DNA of 64,000 nt from Candidatus Bruticola sp. Its GTDB lineage: Bacteria > Vulcanimicrobiota > Xenobia > Xenobiales > Xenobiaceae. The notes below the pieces were generated by a model. The model saw only the letters and a program-made list of their open reading frames with translations, did not search any database and had not been told where the DNA came from. The stretch covers positions 91,452 to 155,451 of the forward strand of contig JBJEGD010000026.1 of assembly GCA_051874735.1 (NCBI GenBank), in the 5' to 3' direction. This document shows, piece after piece, positions 24,854-37,500 of the stretch. Position 1 is the first letter of the stretch. The number at the start of each line of letters is the position of its first letter. Both the position numbers and the translations under genes were made by a program.

Positions 24854-26269
24854 TCATACATCGTTATTTTTTATTTCAAAACAGGCTAAGCGTCCATCTT
24901 TGCTGATTATATAAAGGTTATTGCCGCCTATAACTAGAGGACAGAAGGGAACGAAAGGAAGCTGATATTCTTTTTTTATACGTCCAGTTTCAGCATCTAA
25001 AACCAGCAGAGCCTTTTGTTCAGTTGCTGCTAAAACATTGCCGTTCCAATATAAAGCTGGAGAGGCCGGCGTTCCCGGTATTTTGCAGCTCCAAAGCAGA
25101 CGGCCGCTTAGAGAAGACAGAGATATTATTCTGCTATCTTTTTTTACTACAAAACAGCGCGGTTTCTTGAAATCGAAACTGGGAGCGCCGATAAAATATC
25201 CTTCAGAATTAACTTGGTAAATGTTATTATTGGGCAGCGATGACTTCCAGATTAACTTAGCGTGCAAATAGTTTTTGCCACTATCTGTAGAATTTAATGC
25301 ATAGCAGAAAACGGTTCCGTCCATGGCTGTAAAATACAGTAAATCTTTGATGAGGCGAACGGGACTGCGGAATTCCATATTACTTTTGCCGATAGTTTGC
25401 TGATAGACTTTTTCTGTATTTTGCAGATCTACGATCCATAATTGGCCGTCTAAAGTAACGGCGCATAATAATTCCTTTTGGTAAGTGCATATAACTGTTG
25501 GGGTGCTAACAAAAAGTTTGTTTTGCAGGCTACCGCATTTGAGCAAATTCCAGTTGGGTTTTGCTCCTTGGTCGTCAACTTGGGTGATTATGCCGTCTCC
25601 GGATAAGCAGACGATACCGTTTTTGCTAAAACAAGGTGAACTATAGGCTAATCTGGGCAAAGAACCCAAATTCAGCCGCAGTAGCTGATTTTTAAAACGT
25701 CTGTATTCAGCTTTGCGTTTTGCGTTGGATAAAGCAGCAGCTATGCCTGTTTCTCCTGTATGTTCAGTTTTTTTCTTATTAAAATCAATCAGATGATCAT
25801 ATGGAAAAGGTAATATCCAAGAATTTACTTCCCCACTAATAGCTTTTAATCTCACAATAGAACAATCTTTAGTAGTCAAAGTGAGGGTATTGTCAGAAAA
25901 AAGAGGTGGAGCTGCTGCAGGGGCTGGTAACTGAAAGTTCCACAATAATAAGCCGCTAGCTGTATCGTAGGAAGATACACGTTTGGTAAACGCAGAGCCT
26001 ACGCAAAGCATCTGGTTATTTACTCGCATCCAGTTAGGAACTGCTTGAAAATTAGCTTCCCAAAGTGGCACAGAGGTTATATAAAATTTACCATAAGCAG
26101 AGTTAATGTTTGGCTTGTCTGCCTTATCACCTTCTGAACTTGCTGATGAAGTTTTAACTGCAGAATCAGGCTCATCTGTAATCGGTGCTGCTTGCAGAGG
26201 AATCTGACATAAGTATAGAGATGCCAGCAGCGGAAATATATGTAAATAACTAGGCTTGGTAAACATCAT
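24854..26269 (-). CDS. PQQ-like beta-propeller repeat protein (BamB-like), secreted
   Basis: Recurrent propeller-like motifs (SGLLLWNFQLP, LSGRLLWSCKIPG, VLDAETGRIKKEYQLP). Starting at Met20 gives a signal peptide (MMFTKPSYLHIFPLLASLYLCQIPLQA). The gene is divergent from bamA. The start is uncertain (26326 or 26269). Confidence 0.6.
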   Translation of the reverse strand: MMFTKPSYLHIFPLLASLYLCQIPLQAAPITDEPDSAVKTSSASSEGDKADKPNINSAYGKFYITSVPLWEANFQAVPNWMRVNNQMLCVGSAFTKRVSSYDTASGLLLWNFQLPAPAAAPPLFSDNTLTLTTKDCSIVRLKAISGEVNSWILPFPYDHLIDFNKKKTEHTGETGIAAALSNAKRKAEYRRFKNQLLRLNLGSLPRLAYSSPCFSKNGIVCLSGDGIITQVDDQGAKPNWNLLKCGSLQNKLFVSTPTVICTYQKELLCAVTLDGQLWIVDLQNTEKVYQQTIGKSNMEFRSPVRLIKDLLYFTAMDGTVFCYALNSTDSGKNYLHAKLIWKSSLPNNNIYQVNSEGYFIGAPSFDFKKPRCFVVKKDSRIISLSSLSGRLLWSCKIPGTPASPALYWNGNVLAATEQKALLVLDAETGRIKKEYQLPFVPFCPLVIGGNNLYIISKDGRLACFEIKNNDV

Positions 26270-26339
26270 CTGCTTGTTGGGTTCTTTCTGTTCCAGCCTG
26301 ATCCTTGCTGAAGGGCAATTTCGCATGTTAACTACTGTA

Positions 26340-26886
26340 GTAAATCAAGACGCAAACTGTATACTCTCTTGTGTTTGTTTTTGAATTTGCTTTAATTTTT
26401 TCTATGAAGGATAGGCCTAGAGGGTAGCGAAAAAGGGCGGGATTTTCTGCAGAGCTGTGCTTTTTAGGGGCTACTCTGCTGTATGCAGCTGCGTCCGCTG
26501 TTTTGAGACAGCAGAGGCAATTTACAAGGAAGCAGGTTCATTTGTCTATCTTCTGGCTGAGCAAGGGGAAGGGTTGTTTGCAGAAAAAATCTGCTTTAGG
26601 CGGGTGGTATAAGGGGGGACATTCACTGCAGAAACGCTGGCGGTGCCGCGACTAAATGCAAACAATGTGCGCGCAGATGATGCACCATAAAATGACAAAC
26701 GGCACAGGCTATAAGATATGGTTAGCGTGTGAAGCTACCCGCTAGTTTTTGTCTCCATTGCAGATACATTTGTTGCGATAGTTGAAAAATATTAAATATA
26801 GAGAATGTTAGTAGGTTTGTGCCTTCAGCGCCGTTAAGCTCCAGCTTGAGGCGGCAGCCGCACTTCGTTTTTATTGGAGGAATTAA
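26340..26886. other. long ORF-poor, relatively GC-rich region upstream of bamA
   Basis: About 550 nt without a credible ORF. Roughly 50% GC between about 26400 and 26720, whereas other spacers are strongly AT-rich. It contains several local hairpins (for example ctctgctgt 26472-26480 with acagcagag 26508-26516). Confidence 0.5.
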
Positions 26887-29800
26887 ATGAGGAATGCACT
26901 CGGACATGTCTTGTCAGCAGCAGTGCTTGTAGGTAGTTTTGGGGCTTCAGTTCCTGCCTTTGCAGATAGTCCATCCGGAAATGCTGCGGTCAATACTGCT
27001 GAGCCTTTACCGGCTGCAGTAAATATGGGATTCAGCTTGGAAGCCGATTCTGCGGCTGCTCCCTACGTACATGGTTCTCAGACATCCTCTTTAACTAGTC
27101 AGACTGACAGTTGCGAGTACGTTCAGCCGCATATAATTCAGTTGGTAGCGACTGATAAAGGAGACACTGAGCTGGTTGATTCTGCGGCGATTGCTAGCGG
27201 TGCGGCAAACAGTAGCTGTTCGACTAGTGAACTTAGCACTTCAGAGAAAGATGCTACAGTTTCAACGTCTTCGGCTGTTTCTGCAGATGAGAGCAAAACT
27301 ATAAAAACAAAAACTAAGAGCTCAACTTCCGAACTAAAAAAAAGTAAAGCTAGGCTAAATAAGAGCAGAGCTGCGCGGCGTAAGAATAAAGTTAATTCTA
27401 CCGCCTTGGGAAAGCATTCTAGCCCTGAAAAGGTTGAATCTGCTGTTGCTAATTCTGATAATGGTGCGGTGGCAATAGATAGCAGCGAACCCATAAAAAG
27501 TAAGACTGAGTTTTCCGCTGAACTGTCAGATAAAACGGATCATGTTCAGACTTCCTCCAGCAGTGAACCTGCTGTCGAGGCTAAAGCCGCTTCTTCTGTT
27601 GAGCAAGAGTCTGTGCCAGTATCTACGTACTCCGCCAGCAAAAACAACGGTGATAACGTTTCTTCCGCTCTTGAAGAGAATAGCGCTGCTGCAGAACAAA
27701 AAGTTGCTCCTGCCGCCGATGAAACAAAAAGCCAGGTGGCAGATGAGGGTACGAAAAAGGCTGCAGCTTCGATCTCTCCTATTTTTAGCGGTACGGTTGA
27801 GGCTATAACTGATTCATCTTTGCGTATTTTCGGTATAGGTGCCAATGGTGAACCGCTTAGCCTCGATTTTATTGTCGATGCTAATAGTCAGATGGCTGAG
27901 GGGATAAAAATAGGCGACAGTTTATCTGTTTATTATGAAGTTTCTGAAAGCGGTGGTTTCAGAGTAACTTCGGCTAGGTATCTATCAGGTGAAGCTCCCA
28001 AGAATGTTTTCCCCGGAGATATCCCTTCTGAACTGCTCGACAATAATGATGTAACTGCAAAAGACGAGACTGATACTACCAACGAAGCGGATATACCTAA
28101 GGTCGTCAGTATTGAGGTTGAGGGCAATAAAACCGTTTCTTCAGAGGAAATACTGCAGATTATTTCCACCCGTATCGGTGACCCTTTGTTAGAACCGCGT
28201 ATCCGCCGCGATATGCAGGCTATCTACGACAGTGGATATTACACTGATGTACGTTTAGATACACGCTACACTTCAGATGGCGTCCGTGTGATCTTCCGGG
28301 TTTTGGAAAATCCTGTAGTTGATGAAATAGCTATCGAGGGTAATAGCGTAGTCCCTAGCGAAAAGCTTCGCTCTCTTATGCAACTTGAAACGGGTAAAGT
28401 GCTCAATACTCGTACTTTGCAAAATGATCTACAATCAATCAACAAATATTACAACGAAGATTTAGGCTATACTATTAGTCCTTCCCACGTTACCAAACTC
28501 GATTTTAATAGCGGTAAACTTACGTTTACCTTAGTTGATGGCATTGTAGTTAAAGAAGTTAAGGTTGAGGGGGTTACCGTTTTCCCTCAAGACCAGATCG
28601 CTTCTATGATCACGCTCAAGCCGGGCGATCTGTTTAATCGTAATACTCTGCGCGATGATACAGAAAAAATTTCTGCTCTCTACGATGAAAAACAGTACAT
28701 ATTAGATACTATTAAACCTTCGGTTGATGTCGAAACTGGTGTAGTTACGGTCAGTGTTGTTGAAGCCGTACTTCAGGAAATTAAGCTGGCTTGGACTGGC
28801 ACTAGTGCTACTAAGCACCGTACCAAAGACGACACTGTGCTGCGCAATATCCGTACTAAGCCTGGCGAGGTGATGCGTCGCGATCGCATACAAAAAGATT
28901 TGGAACGTCTTAATAACTTAGGTCTTTTCAAAAAAGTAGAGCCTGAGGTCGAGCCGGGATCTGCGCCAGGTCAAGCCGTTTTAGTTTTAAATATTGAAGA
29001 ACAGAAAACTGGTTTAGCTACGGTCGGTGTCGGTTATGCTGGAGGCGGATCGGGAGCTGTTCGCCCTGGTATAACTGGAGCGATTTCTTATTCTGAGCGC
29101 AACTTATTCGGAGAAGGTAAGCAGTTTTCCATAAACTTGCAGCGAGGTGCTCAGATCGGTGCGTATAGTATTTCTTATTACGATCCAGCCATTAACTCTG
29201 CTCAAGATTCTATTGGCGTATCTGCTTACTATAACAGCGTAGACGACTTGGAACAGCAGGTGACCGGAGCTGATTATGGCACTTACGCTTATTACGATCA
29301 GGAAGTGTACGGCGCCACTGTTACTTACGGCCATCCTTTCTCCGATGACCTTCGCGGTTTTGTCACTTTGCGTCATGAAACTATAAATTTAACTATGTCT
29401 GGTAAATCTCTGTATGTACCAGTTGGCTTGGGTAAAGGTGATTTGAACGCTATTGGTTTGTCTACTTTATATGACACTCGCGATGACGTCTTCAGCCCTC
29501 ACAAAGGTAGTTATGCTAATGTGGCCCTTACTTTTGCTGGTTTTGGGGGAGACTATAGTTACAATAAATTTGTTGTAGAAGGACGCCACTATGTGCCCTT
29601 AACTAAGCGATCTACTTTGGCTTTGCGCGGTATGTACGGAACTGTGGGCAATGGGGCTCCCGCGTCTGAATATTTTTATGCTGGCGGTACTGACACTTTG
29701 CGTGGCTATCAAGATAACTCAATGTTCGGAAACAAAGTTGTCCTTCTGAATGCTGAATACCGTTTCCCCATTGGAAATATTAAGATGCTCAGCGGCGCTG

Positions 29801-29979
29801 TGTTTGTTGACGCCGGCAATGCCTGGATCTCCGGCTACAAGTCGAGTGAACTGTATACCGATGCTGGTGTTGGTCTGCGCATAGTATTTCCTAACCTCGG
29901 TTTGGGTGTTATTCGTATCGATTATGCTTTCGGCAAAGATGGATCCCGCTCCAGTATAGGTATAGGTCAGTCATTCTAG
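26887..29979 (+). CDS. bamA: outer membrane protein assembly factor BamA (Omp85) with an about 400-aa low-complexity N-terminal extension
   Basis: GGAGG RBS and a signal peptide. POTRA-like units begin IEVEGNKTV, IAIEGNSVV, VKVEGVTVF and IKLAWTG. The C-terminal barrel has RGY, VFVDAGNAW and a terminal GIGQSF (C-terminal Phe). Confidence 0.9.
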   Translation: MRNALGHVLSAAVLVGSFGASVPAFADSPSGNAAVNTAEPLPAAVNMGFSLEADSAAAPYVHGSQTSSLTSQTDSCEYVQPHIIQLVATDKGDTELVDSAAIASGAANSSCSTSELSTSEKDATVSTSSAVSADESKTIKTKTKSSTSELKKSKARLNKSRAARRKNKVNSTALGKHSSPEKVESAVANSDNGAVAIDSSEPIKSKTEFSAELSDKTDHVQTSSSSEPAVEAKAASSVEQESVPVSTYSASKNNGDNVSSALEENSAAAEQKVAPAADETKSQVADEGTKKAAASISPIFSGTVEAITDSSLRIFGIGANGEPLSLDFIVDANSQMAEGIKIGDSLSVYYEVSESGGFRVTSARYLSGEAPKNVFPGDIPSELLDNNDVTAKDETDTTNEADIPKVVSIEVEGNKTVSSEEILQIISTRIGDPLLEPRIRRDMQAIYDSGYYTDVRLDTRYTSDGVRVIFRVLENPVVDEIAIEGNSVVPSEKLRSLMQLETGKVLNTRTLQNDLQSINKYYNEDLGYTISPSHVTKLDFNSGKLTFTLVDGIVVKEVKVEGVTVFPQDQIASMITLKPGDLFNRNTLRDDTEKISALYDEKQYILDTIKPSVDVETGVVTVSVVEAVLQEIKLAWTGTSATKHRTKDDTVLRNIRTKPGEVMRRDRIQKDLERLNNLGLFKKVEPEVEPGSAPGQAVLVLNIEEQKTGLATVGVGYAGGGSGAVRPGITGAISYSERNLFGEGKQFSINLQRGAQIGAYSISYYDPAINSAQDSIGVSAYYNSVDDLEQQVTGADYGTYAYYDQEVYGATVTYGHPFSDDLRGFVTLRHETINLTMSGKSLYVPVGLGKGDLNAIGLSTLYDTRDDVFSPHKGSYANVALTFAGFGGDYSYNKFVVEGRHYVPLTKRSTLALRGMYGTVGNGAPASEYFYAGGTDTLRGYQDNSMFGNKVVLLNAEYRFPIGNIKMLSGAVFVDAGNAWISGYKSSELYTDAGVGLRIVFPNLGLGVIRIDYAFGKDGSRSSIGIGQSF

Positions 29980-30175
29980 TTGCTAGGGAGCTACGCTTAT
30001 AGAGCATTCGAAAAAGTTGAGCGGGTGGGCATCTCTAATAGTTGTAGCTCTCTTTTGGGGGGAATTTACGAAAACGTGAAATGCCGCGTTCTGCCGACAT
30101 TTTTTTTGGGTAAAAATGAGCGGCGCAGTTGCTATTTATAGTTTGTTGGAACCCTTAAAGGAGGTTCAAGTTTAA

Positions 30176-31171
30176 ATGTCTGAAGTCAATTTGAGTAAAT
30201 CTGCTGACAACACTGCAGATGAAGCTGTTAGTGAGTCAGCTACTCCTTCTGGCGGAAACAAGAAAATTGTTGGCGTAGTTGTTGCTGTAGCTGTTTTAAT
30301 AATTATCGGTATTGGAACTTGGATGTTCCTCAGTCCTAGCGGTATGATGTCTTCTCCTGCTAAAAAAGTAGGCTGTATAGACGCTTCAGCTATTTATGCT
30401 CTCGATGAGTTTAAAAACGCTGAAAAGCAGATCGCTGATTTTGCTGAAGCTAAAAACAAAGAATTTGAAAAAGCTGTCAGTGAAAAAAATGGAAAAGAAG
30501 GTTCTGAGACTGAGCTCCAGCTGCTTTATAACAAGCTTCAAGGTGAAGTTGAGGTTAACCGTAACAAAATTATTCTTCCTTTGAATAATCGTGTCTCTGC
30601 AGCTATCGCTTCCGTATCTGCTGGAAAAGGGCTTAATGTAGTCCTGGATAAGCGCGTAGTCGTATGTGGAGTTCCCGATATCACTGAAGATGTAAAAAAA
30701 CTTTTTCAACAAAAAGGCGAGCTGAAAGTTCCTTCTGAGGAAGATACTAGCGATTCTCCGGTGGCTTATTTCGATCAGGGAATAGTTCGCAAATTGAAAG
30801 TGTTCGGTGAAGTTGATATCCGCTTGAGTCAAGCCCGCGCTGACATGATGCGTGAGTATGAGAAAAAAGCTCCCAGTCTTTCAGCTTCAGAGCGTGAGGC
30901 CCTGCAGCGTGAGATGTCCGCTCGTTTTGAGGCTATTAGTCAGCAACAGTATGCTCCTCTCTATCAGAAGGTCAATAATTCTGTAAATAAAGTTGCCAAA
31001 GATTTAGGCATTTCGCTGGTACTGAACAAACAGACTGTGATGTACGGCGGGCGCAATATTACTGATGAAGTTATTGATACTTTTAATGCTAGTCTGAACA
31101 CAGATTCATCTTCTGCTGAAGCTGCAGACAGCAAAGCTGCAGACTCTAAGAATACTGAAGCTGCTAAGTAA
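30176..31171 (+). CDS. membrane-anchored protein with two Skp/OmpH-like halves
   Basis: AAGGAGG RBS and TM segment IVGVVVAVAVLIIIGIGTWMFL. There are two units, each ending with ...GLNVVLDKRVVVCGVPDITEDV or ...GISLVLNKQTVMYGGRNITDEVI, the typical OmpH C-terminal pattern. Confidence 0.65.
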   Translation: MSEVNLSKSADNTADEAVSESATPSGGNKKIVGVVVAVAVLIIIGIGTWMFLSPSGMMSSPAKKVGCIDASAIYALDEFKNAEKQIADFAEAKNKEFEKAVSEKNGKEGSETELQLLYNKLQGEVEVNRNKIILPLNNRVSAAIASVSAGKGLNVVLDKRVVVCGVPDITEDVKKLFQQKGELKVPSEEDTSDSPVAYFDQGIVRKLKVFGEVDIRLSQARADMMREYEKKAPSLSASEREALQREMSARFEAISQQQYAPLYQKVNNSVNKVAKDLGISLVLNKQTVMYGGRNITDEVIDTFNASLNTDSSSAEAADSKAADSKNTEAAK

Positions 31172-31184
31172 TTGAGGTGTTTTT

Positions 31185-32624
31185 ATGCAGTTTTTTTCTG
31201 TCCCTAAATTCAAAAGTACAGGCGTATGGCTGGGGGTCGGCAGCATTCTAGTCGGCGCCGCTGTGGCTGTTCAAGTAGGCTTAGCTGAGGTTGCCTGTGC
31301 TGAAGGGACTGAGCCGAAAAAATCTGCTGCTCTTGATAAGGCTGATGATAAGTTCACTGAGTTAGCTGTAGTTGACTTCGATAAGCTGTTGAAAGATCGT
31401 CCCGATTATGAGCGCATCAATCAACTCGATGAACAGATTCGTTTACTGCAACAGGAACTAGATTTTTTGCCTTTAGCTGACCACAGGCGTAAAGTAGATT
31501 CTGGACGTAAACGTATGGAACGCGAGGTTGAAAAGGCTCGCAATGAACTTCAAGCTGAGTCTGAGCGTATTGGACGGGAATTGAAAAATTTTCGCAATGC
31601 ACTTTCTTCTCAGCTTGAACGGGAAAGTAAAGCTCTCAATGAACATTACCAAAATGTTTTACGTCAGCGTATTGCCGCTCTGACTCCCAAAGCTCAGCCG
31701 CAGGTTCCTGAAGATGTTCGCAAGCGTATGGATAGTTTCCTTAGCGATTTGGCTGGAGTGCGTCAGCAGCGACTCTCTGCTAAGCGTTTAGAACTTGAGC
31801 GCCTTATGCAGAATAATTTGGAAAGTGCCAGAGCTTCCATGGATGAGCGCTTAGCAGCCTACGACAATTCTCTTATGGAAGAGAATCAAGCGCAGCGCGT
31901 TAATCTTCAGCTTCAGTTGCAAACGGCAGCTAATGCTGAAGAAGAGTCGTCCATTCAAGATAAGCTGAGTGCTTTGAGTGATGAAGAAACGGCTAAAAAA
32001 GCGGCCAAACGCGATGAACTTAGTGCTGAGTATCAAGCGCTTGAAGCTTCAGAGAGAGCTAATGTTAACTCAAAAATGAAAGCTTTTGAAGATTCTTTAG
32101 ATAAGGAAACTTCTGCTAAAGCGGCTGCTGAACGGGAACGTCTCTTAAAGACGGTGTCAGTTCCTTCTCCCCAGGCTAACAAAGCTGATATTGAGGCCCA
32201 GATCGAAAAGATTAAGGCGACTATCAACGCTGAAATGGAAGCGAAGAAGGCTTCCATGACGGCGGCCATGCAGCAAAAGGCTGAGGAAGCCCAGCGCAAT
32301 ATGGAAAAAAAGCAGGCTGAACTAGAAAAGCGTCTCATGGCCACTCAGAAGCAGCTTGAAGCGATGGTTAAAAATTCCCAAAATGATGTCAGCGATGAAA
32401 CTCGCAAAAAGATGGATGACATTAAGGCCAAGATAGAAGATCTGCAGAAACAGCGCACTGAATTGCACGATTCCATGGCGGCTGATCTGCGCAAGGTTAT
32501 CAGTAAGATAGCTGCAGAGCAGGAAGGGCAGCCTTCTGTAATAGGAACTTATGTAATGAATATTGACTGTTTGGATCTTACCGACAAGACTATGATCGCT
32601 TTGGAGAAAGAGGACCAGCATTAG
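31185..32624 (+). CDS. 479-aa coiled-coil protein with Skp/OmpH-like termini
   Basis: N-terminal hydrophobic segment. An OmpH-like start (LAVVDFDKLLKDRPDYERI) and end (VIGTYVMNIDCLDLTDKTM) are separated by about 380 aa of heptad-rich E/K/Q/A sequence. Confidence 0.55.
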   Translation: MQFFSVPKFKSTGVWLGVGSILVGAAVAVQVGLAEVACAEGTEPKKSAALDKADDKFTELAVVDFDKLLKDRPDYERINQLDEQIRLLQQELDFLPLADHRRKVDSGRKRMEREVEKARNELQAESERIGRELKNFRNALSSQLERESKALNEHYQNVLRQRIAALTPKAQPQVPEDVRKRMDSFLSDLAGVRQQRLSAKRLELERLMQNNLESARASMDERLAAYDNSLMEENQAQRVNLQLQLQTAANAEEESSIQDKLSALSDEETAKKAAKRDELSAEYQALEASERANVNSKMKAFEDSLDKETSAKAAAERERLLKTVSVPSPQANKADIEAQIEKIKATINAEMEAKKASMTAAMQQKAEEAQRNMEKKQAELEKRLMATQKQLEAMVKNSQNDVSDETRKKMDDIKAKIEDLQKQRTELHDSMAADLRKVISKIAAEQEGQPSVIGTYVMNIDCLDLTDKTMIALEKEDQH

Positions 32625-32633
32625 GAGGTCGCA

Positions 32634-33194
32634 GTGAAGAGAATTTTTTGGTGCGGAGCAGTTTGTGCGTTACTCACTGTCGGTGTTTTGTTGGCGTCAG
32701 GATGCAATACCCAGAATCAAAAAGCTATTATTCGCACTGGAACTATAAATAGCACTGTGGTGCTTCAGCAGGATGACAAGTATCAAGAATTATCGCGTCA
32801 GTACTTCGCTGAGCGCGTTAAAGCCAGTCAAGAAGTGCAGCGAATCGTCAAAGAAAATTCTGATGCCAACGGTGTTGTGAGTGATAAGTCTATTTATGAT
32901 AAGCTTATGAAAATTCAGAACGATGTAGAATCGAAGTGGCAGAAACGCACCGCCGACTATATAGATGCTAAAATGAAGAGTATGGAAGAAGCTGCTCAGA
33001 AGGTTGCAGTGGACAGCAAGCTCGATATCATTTTAATCGATTCCGATGATGTACCTACTGTAGAGTATGGCGGCCACGACGTTACAGCTAATGTTCTAGC
33101 TGCTATGCCCGGGTTCGCTGGCAAGTCTGAAGCTGAAAGTACTAGTGCTGAGACTGCAGCTGATTCTAAGCAGCCTGTGAATAACAGCAAATAG
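32634..33194 (+). CDS. Skp/OmpH-like lipoprotein
   Basis: GTG follows AGGAGG. Lipobox LLASGC. It has a coiled-coil middle and an LDIILIDSDDVPTVEYGGHDVTANVL end. Confidence 0.6.
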   Translation: MKRIFWCGAVCALLTVGVLLASGCNTQNQKAIIRTGTINSTVVLQQDDKYQELSRQYFAERVKASQEVQRIVKENSDANGVVSDKSIYDKLMKIQNDVESKWQKRTADYIDAKMKSMEEAAQKVAVDSKLDIILIDSDDVPTVEYGGHDVTANVLAAMPGFAGKSEAESTSAETAADSKQPVNNSK

Positions 33195-33214
33195 AAATGC
33201 GGAGGATAAACAGG

Positions 33215-33688
33215 TTGAAGCATTCAAAGTTTATTAACTGTTTGATTTTAACGGCTGTAGGCGCCGCTCTGCTGCTGTCAGGGGGAGGATGCGCTAAGCG
33301 TTCACTTAAAGTAGGGGTGGTTAATACTGAGAGAATTATCAGGGAAAATCCCAAGTACATGGAATTGAATGTGGTTTTGTCTGATGAGCGGAACAAGTTG
33401 TTCTCGCAAATTCCCAGTAATGTCAACAGCATGTCTGGAGCACAAAAGAAAGCTTTGCAGGAAAAATTAGCTAAAGAGGCTGCTGAGCGTTCCAGTAAAT
33501 TTGACAAGCTTTACAATGAAAGCATGAAAAGCCTGCGTGAAGATATAAAAAAACAGGCTTCAGAAGTTGCTAAAGATAAAAATATCGACTTAGTGGTAGT
33601 TAATACCATAAATTATCCAGTAGTGCTTTATACCAGCGGCGATAATGTCACTTTAGATATTCTTCTCAAAATGGACGGAGCAAAATAA
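33215..33688 (+). CDS. Skp/OmpH-family lipoprotein
   Basis: TTG at 33215 lies 9 nt after GGAGG; the track ATG at 33197 has no RBS. Lipobox LLLSGGGC. It has KVGVVNTERIIRENPKY ... KNIDLVVVNTINYPVVLYTSGDNVTLDIL, a classical OmpH pattern. Confidence 0.75.
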   Translation: MKHSKFINCLILTAVGAALLLSGGGCAKRSLKVGVVNTERIIRENPKYMELNVVLSDERNKLFSQIPSNVNSMSGAQKKALQEKLAKEAAERSSKFDKLYNESMKSLREDIKKQASEVAKDKNIDLVVVNTINYPVVLYTSGDNVTLDILLKMDGAK

Positions 33689-34402
33689 ATGGAACAGGGA
33701 CTCATACATACTAGCGCTTGTATTGATGTCTTCGCCTCTCTTGGAGAGGGATGCCGAGTCGGAGCTATGGCTGTTATTGAAAGTGGAGCCCAAATTGGCT
33801 GCGGAGCTGAAATCGGTCCTAAAGTTTATATCGGACGCAACGTTTCTATCGGTGAAAGAGCTGTTATAAAGTGCGGTGCTGTTATTATGGATGGCGTTGT
33901 TGTTGGCAGAGAAGCGGTAGTCGAGTCGGGGGCTGTTTTGGGAATGGATGGCTTTGGATATGTTTTTGACGGACAAAGCCATCGTAAAATTCAGCAAATA
34001 GGCAATGTTGTCATTGGGCAGGGAGCGAAAATTGGCGCTTGTTCCTGTATAGACAGGGCCGCTTCTGCTTCAACGGTCGTTGGCGATCATACTGAAATAG
34101 GTCATATGGTGATGGTCGGTCATAACAGCAAGATTGGCAGCGGGTGTCGCATTGGTGATCAGAGCGGTTTAACTGGTTCCTCTCTGGTCGGTAACGATTG
34201 TATCATCGGCTCTCAGTGTGGTATAGGTGTGCGTGTTGAACTTGGCGATGGCTGTGTGTTGCTAGATCGAGCCACGGCTATGCGCAAATATGAGCCTGGG
34301 CAGGTTCTGGCCGGACATCCAGGACGACCGGTGGCGGAGGTTCGCCGTGCAGAAGCGGCTTTTAATTTGCTGCCTAAACTTTTAAAAGATTATATTGAGT
34401 AG
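33689..34402 (+). CDS. lpxD: UDP-3-O-acylglucosamine N-acyltransferase, short form (LbH plus C-terminal helix only)
   Basis: It aligns without gaps to the E. coli LpxD catalytic region: IDRAASASTVVGDHTEIGHMVMVGHNSKIG...LTGSS versus [30 protein letters not shown]...MAGSL. The His of the HN motif is present. At 237 aa it has no room for the about 100-aa N-terminal domain, because the upstream gene ends at 33688. Confidence 0.75.
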   Translation: MEQGLIHTSACIDVFASLGEGCRVGAMAVIESGAQIGCGAEIGPKVYIGRNVSIGERAVIKCGAVIMDGVVVGREAVVESGAVLGMDGFGYVFDGQSHRKIQQIGNVVIGQGAKIGACSCIDRAASASTVVGDHTEIGHMVMVGHNSKIGSGCRIGDQSGLTGSSLVGNDCIIGSQCGIGVRVELGDGCVLLDRATAMRKYEPGQVLAGHPGRPVAEVRRAEAAFNLLPKLLKDYIE

Positions 34403-34406
34403 TTCG

Positions 34407-34448
34407 TACCGGTCTTGGGGGCGGTTTTCTAGTCGGGAAGACCGGTAG
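34407..34448 (+). terminator. hairpin after short lpxD (weak T tail)
   Basis: taccggtctt pairs with aagaccggta, a 10-bp stem with a 22-nt loop. Confidence 0.45.
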
Positions 34449-34613
34449 ATCTTGTTGTTAGGGCAGATTCGGAGCAACTCATTTCCATTTTATCAATATT
34501 TATGTCAAGGCGCCTCAATTAGTCTGCAGTTTTGAAATTTGCAGCAGCACAGTTTAGGGCGCTATTTTTCTGTGTAACGCAGAGAGCGATGAATCTGTCG
34601 GAGTTGGGTTTTT

Positions 34614-36458
34614 ATGAGAAAATATAATTTATGGGCCTTAATTTTGGCTTTTGTAGTCTTTTATTCCGCTGCTCTGTCATCTGCCTGGGCTGCTGATGTA
34701 ATGCTGGGAGGCCAGGTTATCTTTCGTATAAATGATGAGGATCAAGCAAAAAAAATATCCCAAAAAATTGAAGCTATGTTGCAGAGGGGGGCTTCTTCGT
34801 CTTCAATTAAAGTCGTACGTAAAGATATTGCTGTAGCCTCGGAGGGGCAAGATAAGCAAGATAAAGATGAAGGTAGCAAGGGAGGGGCTAAAGCGAAAAA
34901 ATCTGTTTATAAAATATTTTGGGGAAGTGAATTAGTCATTGAAGTGAATGACGAAATTGCCAAGCAGAATGCTTCTTCTCCAGAAGCTTTAGCTAATTTA
35001 TGGGCCTCCAATATGCGCAATGTCGTCGATATTGGCCTGTTGAATGTTGATGTTGCTAGAGTCGTTTTACCTATAGAGGCTGATAAGGTTATTTACGCTT
35101 CTGGTTTGGCAACCGGTCCTTTGAGTGCTGAAGAGACTTCAGGTATCGTTGATATTGATATCGATCAGGAAAACGGCCTTATTAAGATAAAAGGGCGCAG
35201 GGTTGGAAAGTCGTCTATCGTTATTAGCAAAGGGGTTGCCTCCGTTTCCGTTTTTGTGCAGGTGAAAGATTGGGCCGGCAAACTTCCTCAGACGGTTAAT
35301 GTTGAAGTAACTGGCAATCCTGCACAGATTGATGACGTTTCCCAGGCGGTTATGCTTTCCATAGCGGCTAATACTTTCGTTCAGCCAGGCTGCAGTGTTT
35401 ATGTTGATGATTCCAACTTTAAACCGATTCCGGTGAGTAAAGGCGACAGTATGCGCTTAAGCGTGCCTGTGGGTATAAATGCTTCGGAAGATTATTTTGC
35501 GCTTCGCGGCAATGTTAATGTTGTAGTTAGCAATATAGAAGCTCCTGTAGTTGAGCAGAATCTGCTTCTAGTCAGCAATCGGCCGGAGCGTGTCAGCACA
35601 GATGGAGTATTAATGAAGTATAACTTCAAGAGACGTGAGCCCAGTCGTCTTATGTTCTCCCATCTTAATGCTTCCGAAAAGAATCGTTATTTGTGGATAA
35701 ATTTAGCTAATTTAAATGACGAACCGATAAAGATTGTTATCAGTCGCACTTCTGCTGGACCTGAGCGCAGCGAAATTTATGTCGGCCAAACGGCTGCCAA
35801 GCGCTTTTTAGAAAATTTGGCCAGTCGTTCCGGCTATATCATTACTCTTCCGCCCAATTCTGCTTTAGAGCTCTGTTCTTATGTGATGCGTCCTGAAGCT
35901 TTGGTAAGTGGATTTATAAATTTCCAAATTTTGGAAGGTACTAGCGCGACCGTTGAAGTGCGCAGTTCATTAAATCCTAATGCTAACGATGGACGTCCTC
36001 TGCCAGAAATAGGGGCCCCTTTTAATCCTTTCAAAATACATCCTCACGGAGTTTTTGCTCAGCCTTATTTTGAAAATGAAGGTGAATTTGTTATAGGTGG
36101 CAGTCCTTTAACTTTTCGTTATGGTGAGAGTCCTTGGCTGATTGATTTTGAAACTGGGCTGCCCAACACTGGCAATTTCGGGGTTTTGTATAAATCTTTG
36201 GTAGAATTAAAAAATCCTACTAAGCGTACAAAAACTGTGGGACTTTACTTTACGCCTTTGTCCGGCCCTGGCGGTGCTAACTTCCTGATAGGCAATTCTG
36301 TTTATCAGGCAGTTTTCCGCAAAAAAGGTGATGAAGTACTTGTAGCTAAAATCGAACTCTCGCCAGAGTCTAGCAGTATAATTGAAATTGTCACTTTACC
36401 TGAGGCGACTTCCTGTTATCCTGCCCAGTATGAATTGCGTGAACTGGACGGGCGCTGA
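34614..36458 (+). CDS. secreted 614-aa protein of unknown function
   Basis: Signal peptide MRKYNLWALILAFVVFYSAALSSAWA. It has its own terminator. No family recognised. Confidence 0.7.
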   Translation: MRKYNLWALILAFVVFYSAALSSAWAADVMLGGQVIFRINDEDQAKKISQKIEAMLQRGASSSSIKVVRKDIAVASEGQDKQDKDEGSKGGAKAKKSVYKIFWGSELVIEVNDEIAKQNASSPEALANLWASNMRNVVDIGLLNVDVARVVLPIEADKVIYASGLATGPLSAEETSGIVDIDIDQENGLIKIKGRRVGKSSIVISKGVASVSVFVQVKDWAGKLPQTVNVEVTGNPAQIDDVSQAVMLSIAANTFVQPGCSVYVDDSNFKPIPVSKGDSMRLSVPVGINASEDYFALRGNVNVVVSNIEAPVVEQNLLLVSNRPERVSTDGVLMKYNFKRREPSRLMFSHLNASEKNRYLWINLANLNDEPIKIVISRTSAGPERSEIYVGQTAAKRFLENLASRSGYIITLPPNSALELCSYVMRPEALVSGFINFQILEGTSATVEVRSSLNPNANDGRPLPEIGAPFNPFKIHPHGVFAQPYFENEGEFVIGGSPLTFRYGESPWLIDFETGLPNTGNFGVLYKSLVELKNPTKRTKTVGLYFTPLSGPGGANFLIGNSVYQAVFRKKGDEVLVAKIELSPESSSIIEIVTLPEATSCYPAQYELRELDGR

Positions 36459-36493
36459 CATTTTATGAAGATTATATAAAAATAATATCTAAA

Positions 36494-36531
36494 GCCCGTT
36501 CTGCCGTTGAGGCGGCTCACGGGTTTTTTTT
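36494..36531 (+). terminator. rho-independent terminator
   Basis: gcccgt..(gccg/cggc inner stem)..acgggt followed by T8. Confidence 0.8.
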
Positions 36532-36660
36532 GATATAAATTATGGCGTCAGCATGCTTCTCTAGTGCGATGGAACGATAAATATGGAGGAATAGCGGAGA
36601 AAATATAAAAAAGCGCCGTAGCTTTTTTTCTTTATTTTTTATTAAATTCGGAGTATTTTC

Positions 36661-37500
36661 ATGTGCAGAGCGCAGCGTACTTTGGCGAAAGAAGTTTCCT
36701 TCGAAGGAGTAGGGATTCATACTGGGAGAGCGAGTCACCTAACTATTAAGCCGGCTCCTGTCGATCACGGTCTCGTTTTTCTTAGTTCTGGAGAGTATAT
36801 CCCTGCTACCTATGAGTACGTTATTTCTACAAAGCGCTCTACAACGATTGGTAAGGGACAGGTCGCGGTAAATACTATCGAGCATTTAATGGCCGCTTTT
36901 GGAGGTCTTTCTGTGGATAATGCTCTTATAGAGATAGAAGGGCCGGAAGTTCCTATTTTAGACGGTTCTGCTTTGCCTTTTTGTCAGGCTATGGAAGAAG
37001 CAGGTATAGTTAATATCAAAGGCAGTGAAGTAGAAGATTATTATCTGAGCGAGCCCATTTTTGCTGCAGAAGGGGACAGTTTAGTTTTGGCTATGCCCGA
37101 TTCCCAATATAATCTTGAAGGAGCTGTCAGCTACAACAGTCCTCAAGTAGGTATTCAGCGATATCGTTACTGCGGATATGACAACTTTGTGACTCATATA
37201 GCTCCTGCTCGTACTTTTGGTTTTTGGTCTGAGGTAAAAACTCTCTTAGAAAACGGATTAGGGCAAGGTGGCGATCTGTCTAATGCTTTAATTTATGATC
37301 GTCCTGGTTTTAATGCTGCAGAAAATCAGCGTTTTGTCAATGAACCGGTGCGTCACAAAATTTTAGATTTAGCTGGTGATATTTGTCTGTTAGGTCGTCC
37401 GCTGTGTGCTTTTGTTTTGGCCGTTCGGGCTGGTCATAAATTGCATGTAGAATTCGTTCGCAAAATCGCTGAGGAGATGAAAAAAAATGCTGAATACTAA
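36661..37500 (+). CDS. lpxC: UDP-3-O-acyl-GlcNAc deacetylase
   Basis: RTLAKEVSFEGVGIHTG, TIEHLMAA, EVPILDGSA and HKILDLAGD motifs. Confidence 0.9.
   Translation: MCRAQRTLAKEVSFEGVGIHTGRASHLTIKPAPVDHGLVFLSSGEYIPATYEYVISTKRSTTIGKGQVAVNTIEHLMAAFGGLSVDNALIEIEGPEVPILDGSALPFCQAMEEAGIVNIKGSEVEDYYLSEPIFAAEGDSLVLAMPDSQYNLEGAVSYNSPQVGIQRYRYCGYDNFVTHIAPARTFGFWSEVKTLLENGLGQGGDLSNALIYDRPGFNAAENQRFVNEPVRHKILDLAGDICLLGRPLCAFVLAVRAGHKLHVEFVRKIAEEMKKNAEY

What the first reader, a model, noticed from the sequence alone, without database searches (positions are those of the whole stretch)
30176..33688. Expanded Skp/OmpH array: four consecutive genes carrying about five OmpH-like units, with three different anchoring modes
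Seen: four tightly spaced genes lie directly after bamA, with spacers of 13, 9 and 2-20 nt. One is a TM-anchored protein with two OmpH-like halves, one is a 479-aa coiled-coil form, and two are lipoproteins (lipoboxes LLASGC and LSGGGC). Established: most Proteobacteria have a single soluble Skp between bamA and lpxD. Inference: this is a diversified, membrane-tethered periplasmic chaperone set, or structural spacer proteins derived from Skp.
Basis: partly seen in the sequence, partly recalled or inferred. Interest (0 to 1): 0.5.

Follow-up and report, generated by a model that had tools for sequence, protein, structure and literature searches.

The report
Four-gene Skp chaperone array after bamA
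Right after the outer-membrane assembly gene bamA, this uncultured gut bacterium (Candidatus Bruticola, phylum Vulcanimicrobiota/Eremiobacterota) carries four Skp-type chaperone genes, including a membrane-anchored double Skp and a Skp with arms about four times the usual length. This elaborates a multi-Skp layout already known in related two-membrane bacteria.

Summary
Window 30176-33688 carries four co-oriented genes between bamA and lpxD, with spacers of 13, 9 and 2 (or 20) nt.

- **G1 (331 aa):** an N-terminal transmembrane anchor plus two Skp/OmpH units. Pfam OmpH scores 72.6 bits, and the AlphaFold model matches solved Skp structures.
- **G3 and G4:** short Skp lipoproteins whose lipobox Cys is invariant in 19 of 19 sequences (window plus 18 orthologs). 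G4 is basic and canonical; G3 is acidic.

All 18 complete Xenobia loci keep the array. The right baseline is diderm Terrabacteria, where up to three skp genes follow bamA (Antunes 2016). A probable Negativicutes locus has the same three paralogue types in the same order, so this is an elaboration, not a new system.

New here are the long-hairpin Skp family and natural single-chain fusions of G1 and G2 lying directly after bamA. The fusions suggest that the two proteins assemble into one three-module complex. Function is inferred, not shown.

The parts
26887..29979 (+). bamA (1030 aa): about 400-aa N-terminal extension without a recognised domain, then POTRA repeats and the Omp85 barrel. Genomic anchor of the array.
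   Evidence: Pfam Omp85 156.7 bits and POTRA 143 bits. NCBIfam TIGR03303 BamA 330.9 bits, above its cut-off.
30176..31171 (+). G1: inner-membrane-anchored tandem Skp (331 aa).
   Evidence: Pfam OmpH 72.6 bits in 2 stretches. AlphaFold pLDDT 84, pTM 0.66. The top 8 Foldseek PDB hits are all Skp/OmpH. NCBI names the identical protein 'OmpH family outer membrane protein'.
30260..30331 (+). G1 residues 29-52: signal-anchor transmembrane helix after a 28-residue hydrophilic tail ending in KK.
   Evidence: Kyte-Doolittle 19-residue maximum 2.76 at residue 34. AlphaFold helix 29-52. The hydrophobic segment is kept in orthologs; L015 and L020 have a lipobox instead.
30368..30709 (+). G1 unit A (residues 65-178): strand, helical hairpin 77-104/110-151, strand, helix.
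   Evidence: AlphaFold secondary structure. hhalign of unit A against unit B gives 98.1%, E 6.7e-14, and against G3 gives 90.6%.
30761..31138 (+). G1 unit B (residues 196-321): strand, hairpin 208-234/237-277, two strands, helix.
   Evidence: Best Pfam OmpH stretch 221-301. AlphaFold. hhalign against G4 95.7% and against G3 95.2%.
31185..32624 (+). G2: secreted long-hairpin Skp (479 aa).
31185..31301 (+). G2 residues 1-39: type-I signal peptide with a predicted cut after ACA. Not a lipobox.
   Evidence: Sequence shown. Ala at -1 in 16 of 19 orthologs, Cys38 in only 8 of 19. Ortholog alignment.
31356..31406 (+). G2 N-terminal body segment (residues 58-74, ELAVVDFDKLL...).
   Evidence: Conservation peak at residues 60-85. 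V63 and D64 are invariant and F65 nearly invariant. Matches the start of the OmpH profile in end-joined constructs.
31407..32519 (+). G2 residues 75-445: one antiparallel helical hairpin, arms 75-246 and 251-445.
   Evidence: AlphaFold helices 75-166, 176-246, 251-321, 331-398 and 404-445. The conservation profile is mirror-symmetric about residue 250.5, r=0.76, reached by 0 of 500 shuffles. Shorter relatives lack about 67 and 73 positions on the two arms.
31683..31709 (+). G2 hinge, N-arm side (residues 167-175, Pro-rich).
   Evidence: AlphaFold helix break. Conservation trough. Insertions here in P0069 and P0125.
31884..31955 (+). G2 hairpin tip motif (residues 234-257, NQxxRVNLQLQLQT...EEE): the most conserved stretch of the family.
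   Evidence: Highest smoothed information content, 2.9 bits at residue 240. The motif is kept in 300- to 350-aa relatives.
32148..32174 (+). G2 hinge, C-arm side (residues 322-330, Pro-rich), paired with 167-175.
   Evidence: AlphaFold break. Conservation trough. Paired insertions in P0069 and P0125.
32520..32621 (+). G2 C-terminal body segment (residues 446-479, PSVIGTYVMNIDCLDLTDKTMIAL).
   Evidence: V452, G454, D464 and T466 invariant. hhalign against the C-terminus of G1 unit A gives 64%, E 6e-5. The AlphaFold confidence is low here, pLDDT 44-58.
32634..33194 (+). G3: acidic Skp lipoprotein (186 aa, mature pI 5.0). Lipobox LLASGC at 32688-32705.
   Evidence: Pfam OmpH 19.7 bits, below the cut-off. 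hhalign against G4 99.4%, E 1.9e-21. Cys24 in 19 of 19 sequences. pI.
33197..33688 (+). G4: basic, canonical-length Skp lipoprotein (163 aa, or 157 aa from TTG 33215; mature pI 9.3). Lipobox LSGGGC at 33275-33292.
   Evidence: Pfam OmpH 35.0 bits, above the 32.4 cut-off. Cys32 in 19 of 19 sequences. Start-codon context. NCBI gives 157 aa, 'OmpH family'. pI.
33689..34402 (+). lpxD (237 aa, short form): downstream boundary of the array.
   Evidence: NCBIfam PRK00892 207 bits. TIGR01853 is matched only over profile positions 94-323.

Best explanation
**Shown**

The four genes are Skp/OmpH-family periplasmic proteins. They form a lineage-specific elaboration of the three-paralogue skp set that follows bamA in diderm Terrabacteria.
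- G1 is an N-in/C-out inner-membrane protein carrying two Skp units that arose by internal duplication.
- G2 is a secreted Skp whose helical hairpin is lengthened to about 170 residues per arm, with a Pro-rich hinge on both arms and a conserved tip motif.
- G3 (acidic) and G4 (basic, canonical size) are lipid-anchored single Skp units.

**Inferred**

The proteins act as ATP-independent holdases that receive unfolded outer-membrane proteins leaving the Sec translocon and pass them to BamA. They would work from fixed membrane stations instead of as one freely diffusing trimer.

The favoured sub-hypothesis (about 0.45) is that G1 and G2 assemble through their body modules into one three-module, Skp-trimer-like complex on the inner membrane. 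Its single long arm (about 24 nm if straight, about half that if folded at the hinge) would project its conserved tip toward the outer membrane or BamA.
For: **Family membership**
- Pfam OmpH is above threshold for G1 (72.6 bits, two stretches) and G4 (35.0 bits).
- hhalign on ortholog alignments: G3 against G4 99.4%, G1b against G4 95.7%, G1a against G1b 98.1%.
- The G1 AlphaFold model (pLDDT 84) has Skp topology twice. Its top 8 PDB hits are Skp/OmpH at probability 0.90-1.00, E 8e-3 to 0.36.

**G2 is a Skp**
- OmpH is the family most often hit among 20 G2 orthologs (16 of 20, best E 1.7e-5).
- A G2-family profile hits P0153 over its full length at E 5.5e-20 in 1.84 billion proteins. P0153 passes Pfam OmpH at 45.8 bits and NCBI names it OmpH family. 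P0173 also passes, at 36.5 bits.

**Long hairpin**
- AlphaFold helices.
- Mirror symmetry of conservation about residue 250.5, r=0.76, reached by 0 of 500 shuffles.
- Matched deletions on both arms in 310-aa relatives, and matched insertions at both hinges.

**Conserved tip:**

**Anchors:**

**Conservation:** all four genes are present in 18 of 18 complete Xenobia loci.

**G1-G2 co-assembly**
- Four distinct 638-652-aa proteins fuse a transmembrane helix, G1 unit A without its hairpin, G1 unit B and a G2-like unit.
- One of them lies directly after bamA with no other skp gene following.

**Precedents:** up to three skp genes follow bamA in Negativicutes and Halanaerobiales (PMC5007114; PMC5491611). 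Skp paralogues have diverged functions in Bacteroidota (PMC10994853).
Against: - No functional, localisation or oligomer data exist for any of these proteins.
- The G2 body domain is modelled at low confidence (pLDDT 44-58).
- Direct hhalign of G2 against the other units reaches only 55-64%.
- A PDB sequence-profile search with G2 finds no Skp.
- End-joined 'mini-G2' constructs stay below the Pfam threshold (24.6-28.1 bits). One of four internal-coil controls also gives a weak OmpH hit at 17.1 bits.
- G1, G2 and G3 are acidic (pI 5.0-5.4), unlike basic canonical Skp.
- Gene fusion suggests physical association but does not prove it. No multimer prediction could be run.
- Whether the lipoproteins sit in the inner or the outer membrane is unknown.
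Confidence: 0.6

Rival explanations
1. **Independent chaperones.** Each of the four proteins forms its own homo-oligomer and serves a different client class or compartment. There is no G1-G2 complex, and the fusions seen elsewhere only reflect co-expression.
For: - Canonical Skp is a homotrimer (1SG2 and 1U2M, hit).
- In Bacteroidota, SkpA and SkpB are not interchangeable (PMC10994853).
- All four V. parvula Skp proteins are detected separately (PMC5491611).
- The anchoring of the G1-type protein varies between lineages: transmembrane helix, lipoprotein or soluble. This argues against a rigid shared architecture.
Against: - A tandem two-unit protein cannot close a three-fold Skp body without a third unit or a different oligomer.
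- Four separate fusion clusters keep exactly three body modules in one chain.
- The G1-type then G2-type gene order is conserved in three distant lineages.
Confidence: 0.3
2. **Structural spacer or tether.** G2, possibly with G1, is not a chaperone. [quoted passage not shown] Its long coiled coil would set or bridge the distance between inner and outer membrane, and its tip would bind a fixed partner.
For: - The hairpin tip is the most conserved part of the family. That fits a specific docking site better than promiscuous client binding.
- If extended, the arm length is of the order of a periplasm width. The helix lengths come; the periplasm width is my own knowledge.
- There is a precedent. 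In the T9SS extended translocon the Skp scaffold is 'repurposed as a structural element', and the SkpA trimer stably encloses the SprA N-terminus (PMC10994853).
- BamA here has a roughly 400-aa extra N-terminus that could be such a partner.
Against: - G2 has no membrane anchor or recognisable wall-binding domain of its own.
- The hinge may fold the arm in half.
- Hairpin length varies from about 300 to about 505 aa total protein length between lineages, without any known matching variation in the envelope.
- Nothing was tested directly.
Confidence: 0.2
3. **Unrelated coiled coil.** G2 is an unrelated coiled-coil protein that happens to sit inside the skp array, and only G1, G3 and G4 are OmpH-like.
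For: - Pfam OmpH on the window protein gives only E=0.55.
- NCBI annotates it as a hypothetical protein.
- Foldseek and PDB profile searches return only generic coiled coils or apolipoproteins.
Against: - The transitive link through P0153 and P0173, which pass the OmpH threshold.
- Conserved N- and C-terminal body motifs shared with short Skps.
- The same middle position in skp arrays of three lineages.
- Fusion to G1 units.
Confidence: 0.05

Closest known systems
Escherichia coli Skp (OmpH family, PF03938; PDB 1SG2, 1U2M)
   Same: - It has the same gene position, between bamA and lpxD.
- It has the same strand / helical-hairpin / strands / helix topology, modelled with confidence for both G1 units.
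- G4 has a similar size and a basic pI.
- It is exported through a Sec-type signal.
   Different: - E. coli has one soluble copy. This locus has four genes and five units.
- None of the E. coli features of a transmembrane anchor, lipid anchors, tandem units or a roughly fourfold longer hinged hairpin with a conserved tip is present.
- Three of the four proteins here are acidic.
The skp triplet of the outer-membrane gene cluster of diderm Firmicutes (Negativicutes and Halanaerobiales; Antunes 2016, PMC5007114; Veillonella parvula vpar_0528-30, PMC5491611)
   Same: - Several skp genes lie directly after bamA and before the lpx genes.
- A probable Negativicutes locus (L022) has a G1-type (157 aa), a long G2-type lipoprotein (309 aa) and a G4-type lipoprotein (140 aa) in the same order.
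   Different: - The Xenobia locus has four genes.
- The G1-type is doubled within one gene and anchored by a transmembrane helix.
- The G2-type is about 170 aa longer and is soluble, not lipidated.
- The G4-type is duplicated into an acidic and a basic copy.
- tamB is not adjacent.
- The papers I read call the copies Skp homologues and do not distinguish types.
SkpA and SkpB of Bacteroidota (Flavobacterium johnsoniae; PDB 8GL8; PMC10994853)
   Same: - They are Skp paralogues encoded at the bamA locus with diverged roles.
- SkpA is the best structural match of both the G1 and G2 models.
- They show that a Skp can be a fixed part of an outer-membrane machine.
   Different: - They have ordinary length.
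- They form a homotrimer.
- No tandem or long-hairpin form is described.
- They belong to a different phylum and machine (the type 9 secretion system).
PpiD and YfgM (inner-membrane-anchored periplasmic chaperones of E. coli)
   Same: This is a functional analogy for G1 only: a periplasmic chaperone domain held at the inner membrane by one N-terminal helix (PpiD is described as inner-membrane-anchored in PMC2956729).
   Different: The folds are unrelated (parvulin and TPR). No homology is claimed.
Braun's lipoprotein Lpp (own knowledge: a trimeric coiled coil whose length sets periplasm width in E. coli)
   Same: This is a functional analogy for the spacer rival: a long periplasmic coiled coil of defined length.
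   Different: - Lpp is a parallel trimer that is lipidated and linked to peptidoglycan.
- G2 is an antiparallel hairpin on a Skp body with no anchor.
- Terrabacteria tether the outer membrane with OmpM/SlpA instead (PMC13067283).
Prefoldin (archaeal and eukaryotic 'jellyfish' holdase)
   Different: - It is cytosolic and a hexamer.
- It is a convergent architecture, not homologous.

Membership tests
Skp/OmpH (Pfam PF03938) | Sequence match to the family profile at or above the gathering score (32.4 bits) | tested here: inconclusive
   Met by G1 (72.6 bits, 2 stretches) and G4 (35.0 bits). Not met by G3 (19.7 bits) or G2 (10.9 bits) taken alone. G3 is rescued by hhalign, 99.4% to G4. G2 is rescued only transitively, through P0153 (45.8 bits) and P0173 (36.5 bits), which its family profile hits at E 5.5e-20 and 1e-13.
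Skp/OmpH (Pfam PF03938) | Fold: N-terminal strand, long helical hairpin, C-terminal strands and helix, which together form the body plus a tentacle | tested here: met
Skp/OmpH (Pfam PF03938) | Export to the periplasm | tested here: met
   Sequence level only. G1 has a signal anchor, G2 a signal peptide with a conserved AxA site, and G3 and G4 have lipoboxes with an invariant Cys. No dedicated signal-peptide predictor was available.
Skp/OmpH (Pfam PF03938) | Homotrimer with a central beta-barrel body | not testable with these tools
   Only monomer prediction was available. The tandem G1 and the three-module fusions suggest a pseudo-trimer and not a homotrimer.
Skp/OmpH (Pfam PF03938) | ATP-independent holdase activity on unfolded outer-membrane proteins | not testable with these tools
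   This needs biochemistry.
Skp/OmpH (Pfam PF03938) | Gene located between bamA and lpxD (typical, not strictly defining) | tested here: met
   The order is bamA 26887-29979, G1-G4, lpxD 33689-34402.
Multi-skp outer-membrane cluster of diderm Terrabacteria (TamB/BamA/Skp x up to 3, then lpx genes) | Several skp genes immediately downstream of a single bamA, followed by lipid A genes | tested here: met
   Four skp genes are followed by lpxD, lpxC, lpxA and lpxB. The same layout occurs in 18 Xenobia loci. Three-gene versions occur in L022 and L024. The literature baseline is PMC5007114.
Multi-skp outer-membrane cluster of diderm Terrabacteria (TamB/BamA/Skp x up to 3, then lpx genes) | tamB adjacent to bamA | tested here: not met
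   No TamB/DUF490 match was found among the 28 ORFs of at least 150 aa that were scanned; 17 others, all more than 10 kb from bamA, were not scanned. L022 does have tamB upstream.
Long-hairpin Skp subfamily (defined here from the G2 profile) | Skp body motifs at both ends, a hairpin with far more than 45 residues per arm, and the tip motif (N/D)LxLxL(K/Q)T...EE | tested here: met
   G2 has all three features. There are 58 representatives at E<=1e-30, plus a tier of 300- to 350-aa proteins that share the tip and body motifs.

The most novel reading that the evidence does not exclude
G1 and G2 form a heteromeric, inner-membrane-anchored Skp-like complex: three body modules, two from G1 and one from G2. 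Its single hinged arm of about 24 nm spans the periplasm, and its conserved tip docks on BamA or the outer membrane. This would be a physical trans-envelope bridge that delivers outer-membrane proteins, ancestral to diderm Terrabacteria, which are reported to lack BamB-E-type lipoprotein partners. The long-hairpin Skp would then be a previously unrecognised core component of outer-membrane biogenesis in that half of the bacterial tree.
Probability: 0.2. Interest if true: 0.8.

Novelty: new variant of a known kind. Interest (0 to 1): 0.5.

Why it matters
Most of what is known about how unfolded outer-membrane proteins cross the periplasm comes from E. coli and its single soluble Skp. Diderm Terrabacteria are reported to run BamA without the known lipoprotein partners, and what assists it there is an open question (PMC13067283).

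This locus, with the related loci found here, shows that their several 'Skp copies' are three distinct, conserved types. One type has a very long hinged hairpin with a conserved tip, and in some lineages it is fused to the membrane-anchored type.

That yields a concrete, testable hypothesis of a tethered and possibly periplasm-spanning Skp assembly. It also gives a defined target, the roughly 310-aa long Skp found in a probable Negativicutes locus. It can be tested if a genetically tractable diderm Firmicute such as Veillonella parvula carries it; this was not checked.

If the proteins prove to be ordinary redundant chaperones, the finding is only a lineage-specific gene-family expansion.

Tried and rejected
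- **Foldseek of the G2 model against PDB.** It returned only long antiparallel coiled coils (Rad50, MukB elbow, chemoreceptors), none at E<=1e-3. This fits a hairpin shape but says nothing about family.
- **PDB sequence-profile search with the G2 alignment.** Only apolipoprotein-type noise came back. G4 alone gave weak full-length OmpH hits at E 0.15.
- **Direct hhalign of G2 or its ends against G1a, G1b, G3 and G4.** It reached at most 64%, too weak alone.
- **End-joined 'mini-G2' constructs.** OmpH was the top family but below threshold. Among four internal-coil controls, three gave no OmpH hit and one gave 17.1 bits, so this counts only as supporting evidence.
- **afdb50 fold library.** It was unavailable, so the spread of tandem Skp proteins among named organisms could not be surveyed.
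- **Naming the organisms of L021 and L022.** Exact protein look-up returned no names. 'Probable Negativicutes' for L022 rests on tamB/bamA/SonA-like synteny (PMC13018214).
- **Promoter and terminator scan of 26300-37000.** Counts equalled the shuffled expectation, so no operon boundaries are claimed.
- **tRNA and Rfam scans of the window.** Nothing was found.
- **Word-indexed homolog search with G4.** Only close relatives came back, which did not help to widen the profile.
- **Lipoprotein reading of G2 (VAC at residues 36-38).** Rejected because the Cys is not conserved.
- **Literature searches for long or tandem Skp.** Nothing was found in the held library, which is not proof of absence.

Full report
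**Source and context**

The window comes from Candidatus Bruticola sp. G1 and G2 are 100% identical to NCBI MAG proteins of that genus. The genus belongs to phylum Vulcanimicrobiota (Eremiobacterota), class Xenobia, kingdom Bacillati.

Genes around the finding form an outer-membrane and lipid A cluster:
- a BamB-like PQQ propeller on the minus strand, divergent from bamA
- bamA
- the four genes of the finding
- a short lpxD
- a conserved 614-aa secreted protein of unknown family
- lpxC
- a Gfo/Idh/MocA oxidoreductase
- lpxA
- an 815-aa lpxB fusion

No tRNA or Rfam family is present in the window.

**Observation**

| Gene | Coordinates | Length | Export or anchor | Pfam OmpH (cut-off 32.4 bits) | Mature pI |
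|---|---|---|---|---|---|
| G1 | 30176-31171 | 331 aa | transmembrane signal anchor | 72.6 bits, 2 stretches | 5.4 |
| G2 | 31185-32624 | 479 aa | cleavable signal peptide, soluble | 10.9 bits (E=0.55) | 5.4 |
| G3 | 32634-33194 | 186 aa | lipoprotein | 19.7 bits | 5.0 |
| G4 | 33197-33688 | 163 aa | lipoprotein | 35.0 bits | 9.3 |

- G1, G2 and G3 have good Shine-Dalgarno sequences. For G4 the TTG at 33215 has the better one and is the NCBI start, which gives 157 aa and a 20-nt spacer.
- lpxD starts at the base after the G4 stop.
- bamA ends 196 nt before G1.
- A promoter and terminator scan gave no more sites than shuffled sequence, so I make no claim about transcription units.

**G1**

- Pfam OmpH scores 72.6 bits in two stretches.
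- On alignments of 20 sequences (window plus 19 orthologs), the two halves match each other at 98.1% (E 6.7e-14). They match G3 and G4 at 90-96%.
- The AlphaFold model built on 38 sequences has pLDDT 84 and pTM 0.66. It shows a helix at residues 29-52 and then the Skp topology twice, at residues 65-178 and 196-321.
- Its eight best PDB matches are all Skp/OmpH: SkpA of the T9SS translocon (8GL8), E. coli Skp (1SG2, 1U2M) and Caulobacter CC_1914 (4KQT).
- A 28-residue hydrophilic tail ending in KK precedes the hydrophobic helix, and no AxA site follows. I therefore read it as an uncleaved signal anchor, N-in and C-out. This is an inference.
- In two distant Xenobia loci (L015, L020) and one other Eremiobacterota locus (L024), the G1-type protein has a lipobox instead.

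**G3 and G4**

- G4 passes the Pfam threshold (35.0 bits). G3 does not (19.7 bits), but it matches G4 at 99.4%, E 1.9e-21.
- The lipobox Cys is present in all 19 aligned sequences of each (window plus 18 orthologs). A PROSITE-style lipobox pattern is met in 15 of 19 for G3 and 17 of 19 for G4.
- Mature G4 is basic (pI 9.3), like canonical Skp. G3, G1 and G2 are acidic (5.0-5.4).

**G2: family**

On the window protein alone, Pfam gives only E=0.55 for OmpH, and NCBI calls the protein hypothetical. The evidence that it is a Skp comes from six sources.

1. OmpH is the family matched by the most members of a 20-sequence ortholog alignment (16 of 20, best E 1.7e-5).
2. A profile of that alignment was searched against 1.84 billion representative proteins. 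It finds 212 relatives, 58 of them at E<=1e-30 and mostly 430-505 aa.
   - One relative, P0153 (505 aa, E 5.5e-20, aligned end to end), passes Pfam OmpH at 45.8 bits. NCBI names it 'OmpH family outer membrane protein' in an Eremiobacterota MAG.
   - P0173 (309 aa) passes at 36.5 bits.
4. The conserved termini resemble the body segments of short Skps. They are ELAVVDFDKLL at the N-terminus and VIGxYxxNxDxxDLTD at the C-terminus.
5. Constructs that join the two ends give OmpH as the top family across almost the whole profile, at 24.6-28.1 bits, which is below threshold. Of four control constructs made from internal coil, three give no OmpH hit and one gives 17.1 bits.
6. G2-type genes occupy the same middle position in skp arrays of three lineages.

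Direct hhalign to the other units is weak, at 55-64%. A PDB profile search is negative. I put the probability that G2 is a true Skp homologue at about 0.9.

**G2: shape**

AlphaFold (pLDDT 76, pTM 0.38) predicts helices at 75-166, 176-246, 251-321, 331-398 and 404-445. Three observations independent of the model support a single antiparallel hairpin that turns at about residue 249.

- Across 54 diverse family members, the per-residue conservation profile is mirror-symmetric about residue 250.5. The correlation is r=0.76 over 173 residue pairs. None of 500 block-shuffled profiles reaches it (shuffle maximum 0.49 +/- 0.09).
- The roughly 310-aa relatives keep the two body ends and the distal hairpin, and lack about 67 and about 73 profile positions on the two arms.
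- The Pro-rich breaks at 167-175 and 322-330 lie equally far from the turn and are conservation troughs. They carry paired insertions in P0069 and large paired Pro-rich insertions in P0125.

At 0.15 nm per residue, the proximal segment (92 residues) and the distal segment (71 residues) add up to about 24 nm if straight, or about half that if folded at the hinge. From my own knowledge, the E. coli Skp tentacle is about 6 nm.

The turn region, NQxxRVNLQLQLQT...EEE at residues 234-257, is the most conserved stretch of the whole family. It is recognisable in the 300- to 350-aa forms.

G2 has a signal peptide with a conserved small-x-small cleavage site. Cys38 is not conserved (8 of 19), so I read G2 as soluble.

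**Comparison with related loci**

- All 18 Xenobia/UBP9 loci that extend far enough carry bamA, G1, G2, G3, G4, a short lpxD, the 614-aa protein and lpxC. G2 identity falls as low as 30%.
- Another Eremiobacterota MAG (L024) has three genes: a tandem G1-type lipoprotein (286 aa), a G2-type (505 aa) and a soluble G4-type (144 aa), followed by a full-length lpxD.
- A locus with tamB, a sigma factor, bamA and a 414-aa protein in the SonA position (L022) is probably from the Negativicutes, by synteny with PMC13018214. It has a single-unit G1-type (157 aa, E 7e-23 to G1a), a long G2-type lipoprotein (309 aa) and a G4-type lipoprotein (140 aa), followed by lpxD.
- This agrees with published statements that up to three Skp homologues follow BamA in Negativicutes and Halanaerobiales, and that V. 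parvula has three there plus one elsewhere (PMC5007114; PMC5491611).
- The Xenobia array therefore derives from a three-type ancestral set. The changes are an internal duplication of the G1-type, a duplication of the G4-type into G3 and G4, and further lengthening of the G2-type.
- The papers I could read treat the copies simply as Skp. I found no description of the long or tandem forms.

**Fusions**

- Four distinct representatives of 638-652 aa (P0152, P0162, P0165, P0192) share one architecture. It is a transmembrane helix, the C-terminal body part of G1 unit A without its hairpin, a full G1 unit B, and a G2-type long unit.
- P0192 lies directly after bamA in its contig, and no further skp gene follows.
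- These proteins hold three Skp body modules in one chain, joined by linkers of about 20 residues. A Skp trimer is built from three such modules.
- This is the basis for the hypothesis that G1 (two modules) and G2 (one module) assemble into a pseudo-trimer on the inner membrane. It is an inference from gene fusion.

**Mechanism**

I commit to a Skp-type, ATP-independent holdase function for the set, with specialisation by location.
- G1, probably with G2, acts at the inner membrane next to Sec.
- G3 and G4 act on a membrane through their lipid anchors. Which membrane is unknown.
- G4 is the canonical basic form.

The rivals are independent homo-oligomeric chaperones, and a structural strut role for G2. 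The strut reading has a precedent in SkpA, which was repurposed as a fixed element that encloses the SprA N-terminus in the T9SS translocon (PMC10994853). The conserved tip argues for a specific partner under either reading. The extra BamA N-terminus of about 400 residues is one candidate. That suggestion is pure speculation.

**Novelty and score**

Multi-skp arrays after bamA are known, so this is a new variant of a known kind. Three things appear to be undescribed:
- the recognition of three conserved Skp types
- the long-hairpin subfamily with its conserved tip and hinge
- the G1-G2 fusions

Interest is 0.5. The finding is solid and gives a testable idea about outer-membrane biogenesis in Terrabacteria, but it includes no functional evidence and no departure from the Skp family.

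Noticed in passing
window 26887-28100 (BamA residues 1-~400): BamA carries an N-terminal extension of about 400 residues, rich in Ser, Ala, Glu and Lys, with no Pfam domain before the first POTRA repeat at about residue 408. Full-length matches occur only in the gut Bruticola-like loci (L001-L009, L013, L017). In other Xenobia the BamA match starts at residue 200-300.
   Followed up: partly
window 33689-34402: LpxD is only 237 aa and matches profile positions 94-323 of TIGR01853, so it lacks the N-terminal PF04613 domain. The short form recurs in all Xenobia loci, whereas L022 and L024 have 339- and 359-aa LpxD proteins with that domain.
   Followed up: partly
window 34614-36458: A 614-aa protein with a signal peptide lies between lpxD and lpxC. 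It has no significant Pfam match (best E 0.0015, below threshold) and no NCBIfam match, and is conserved at 40-91% identity in the 16 Xenobia loci that extend far enough (of 18). It is an unknown member of the outer-membrane cluster.
   Followed up: no
window 39839-42286: The lpxB gene encodes 815 aa, and only residues 17-358 match LpxB. The C-terminal 450 residues or so have no family match.
   Followed up: no
window 24854-26326 (minus strand): A secreted PQQ/BamB-like beta-propeller (PF13360, 71.6 bits) is encoded divergently from bamA. This is notable because Terrabacteria are said to lack Bam accessory lipoproteins. It does not have a canonical lipobox.
   Followed up: no
L017-L020, P0029: Loci with the same Xenobia synteny and 54-76% BamA identity carry MAG names such as Burkholderiales, Riflebacteria and Candidatus Nitrosotenuis. 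These are probably mislabelled bins.
   Followed up: no
L021 8001-9950; proteins P0152, P0162, P0165, P0192: In an unnamed lineage, a single 638-652-aa gene after bamA fuses a G1-like part and a G2-like part, and is followed by RNase Y instead of lpxD. The organism could not be identified.
   Followed up: partly
window 31710-32147 (G2 residues 176-321): The two distal helices (176-246 and 251-321) resemble each other in hhalign in the same register (93.6%). Whether this reflects an internal repeat or only shared coiled-coil composition was not resolved.
   Followed up: no
protein P0125 (644 aa, G2 family): This member has Pro-rich insertions of about 70 residues at both hinge positions of the hairpin, so the hinge can become a long flexible linker in some lineages.
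   Followed up: partly
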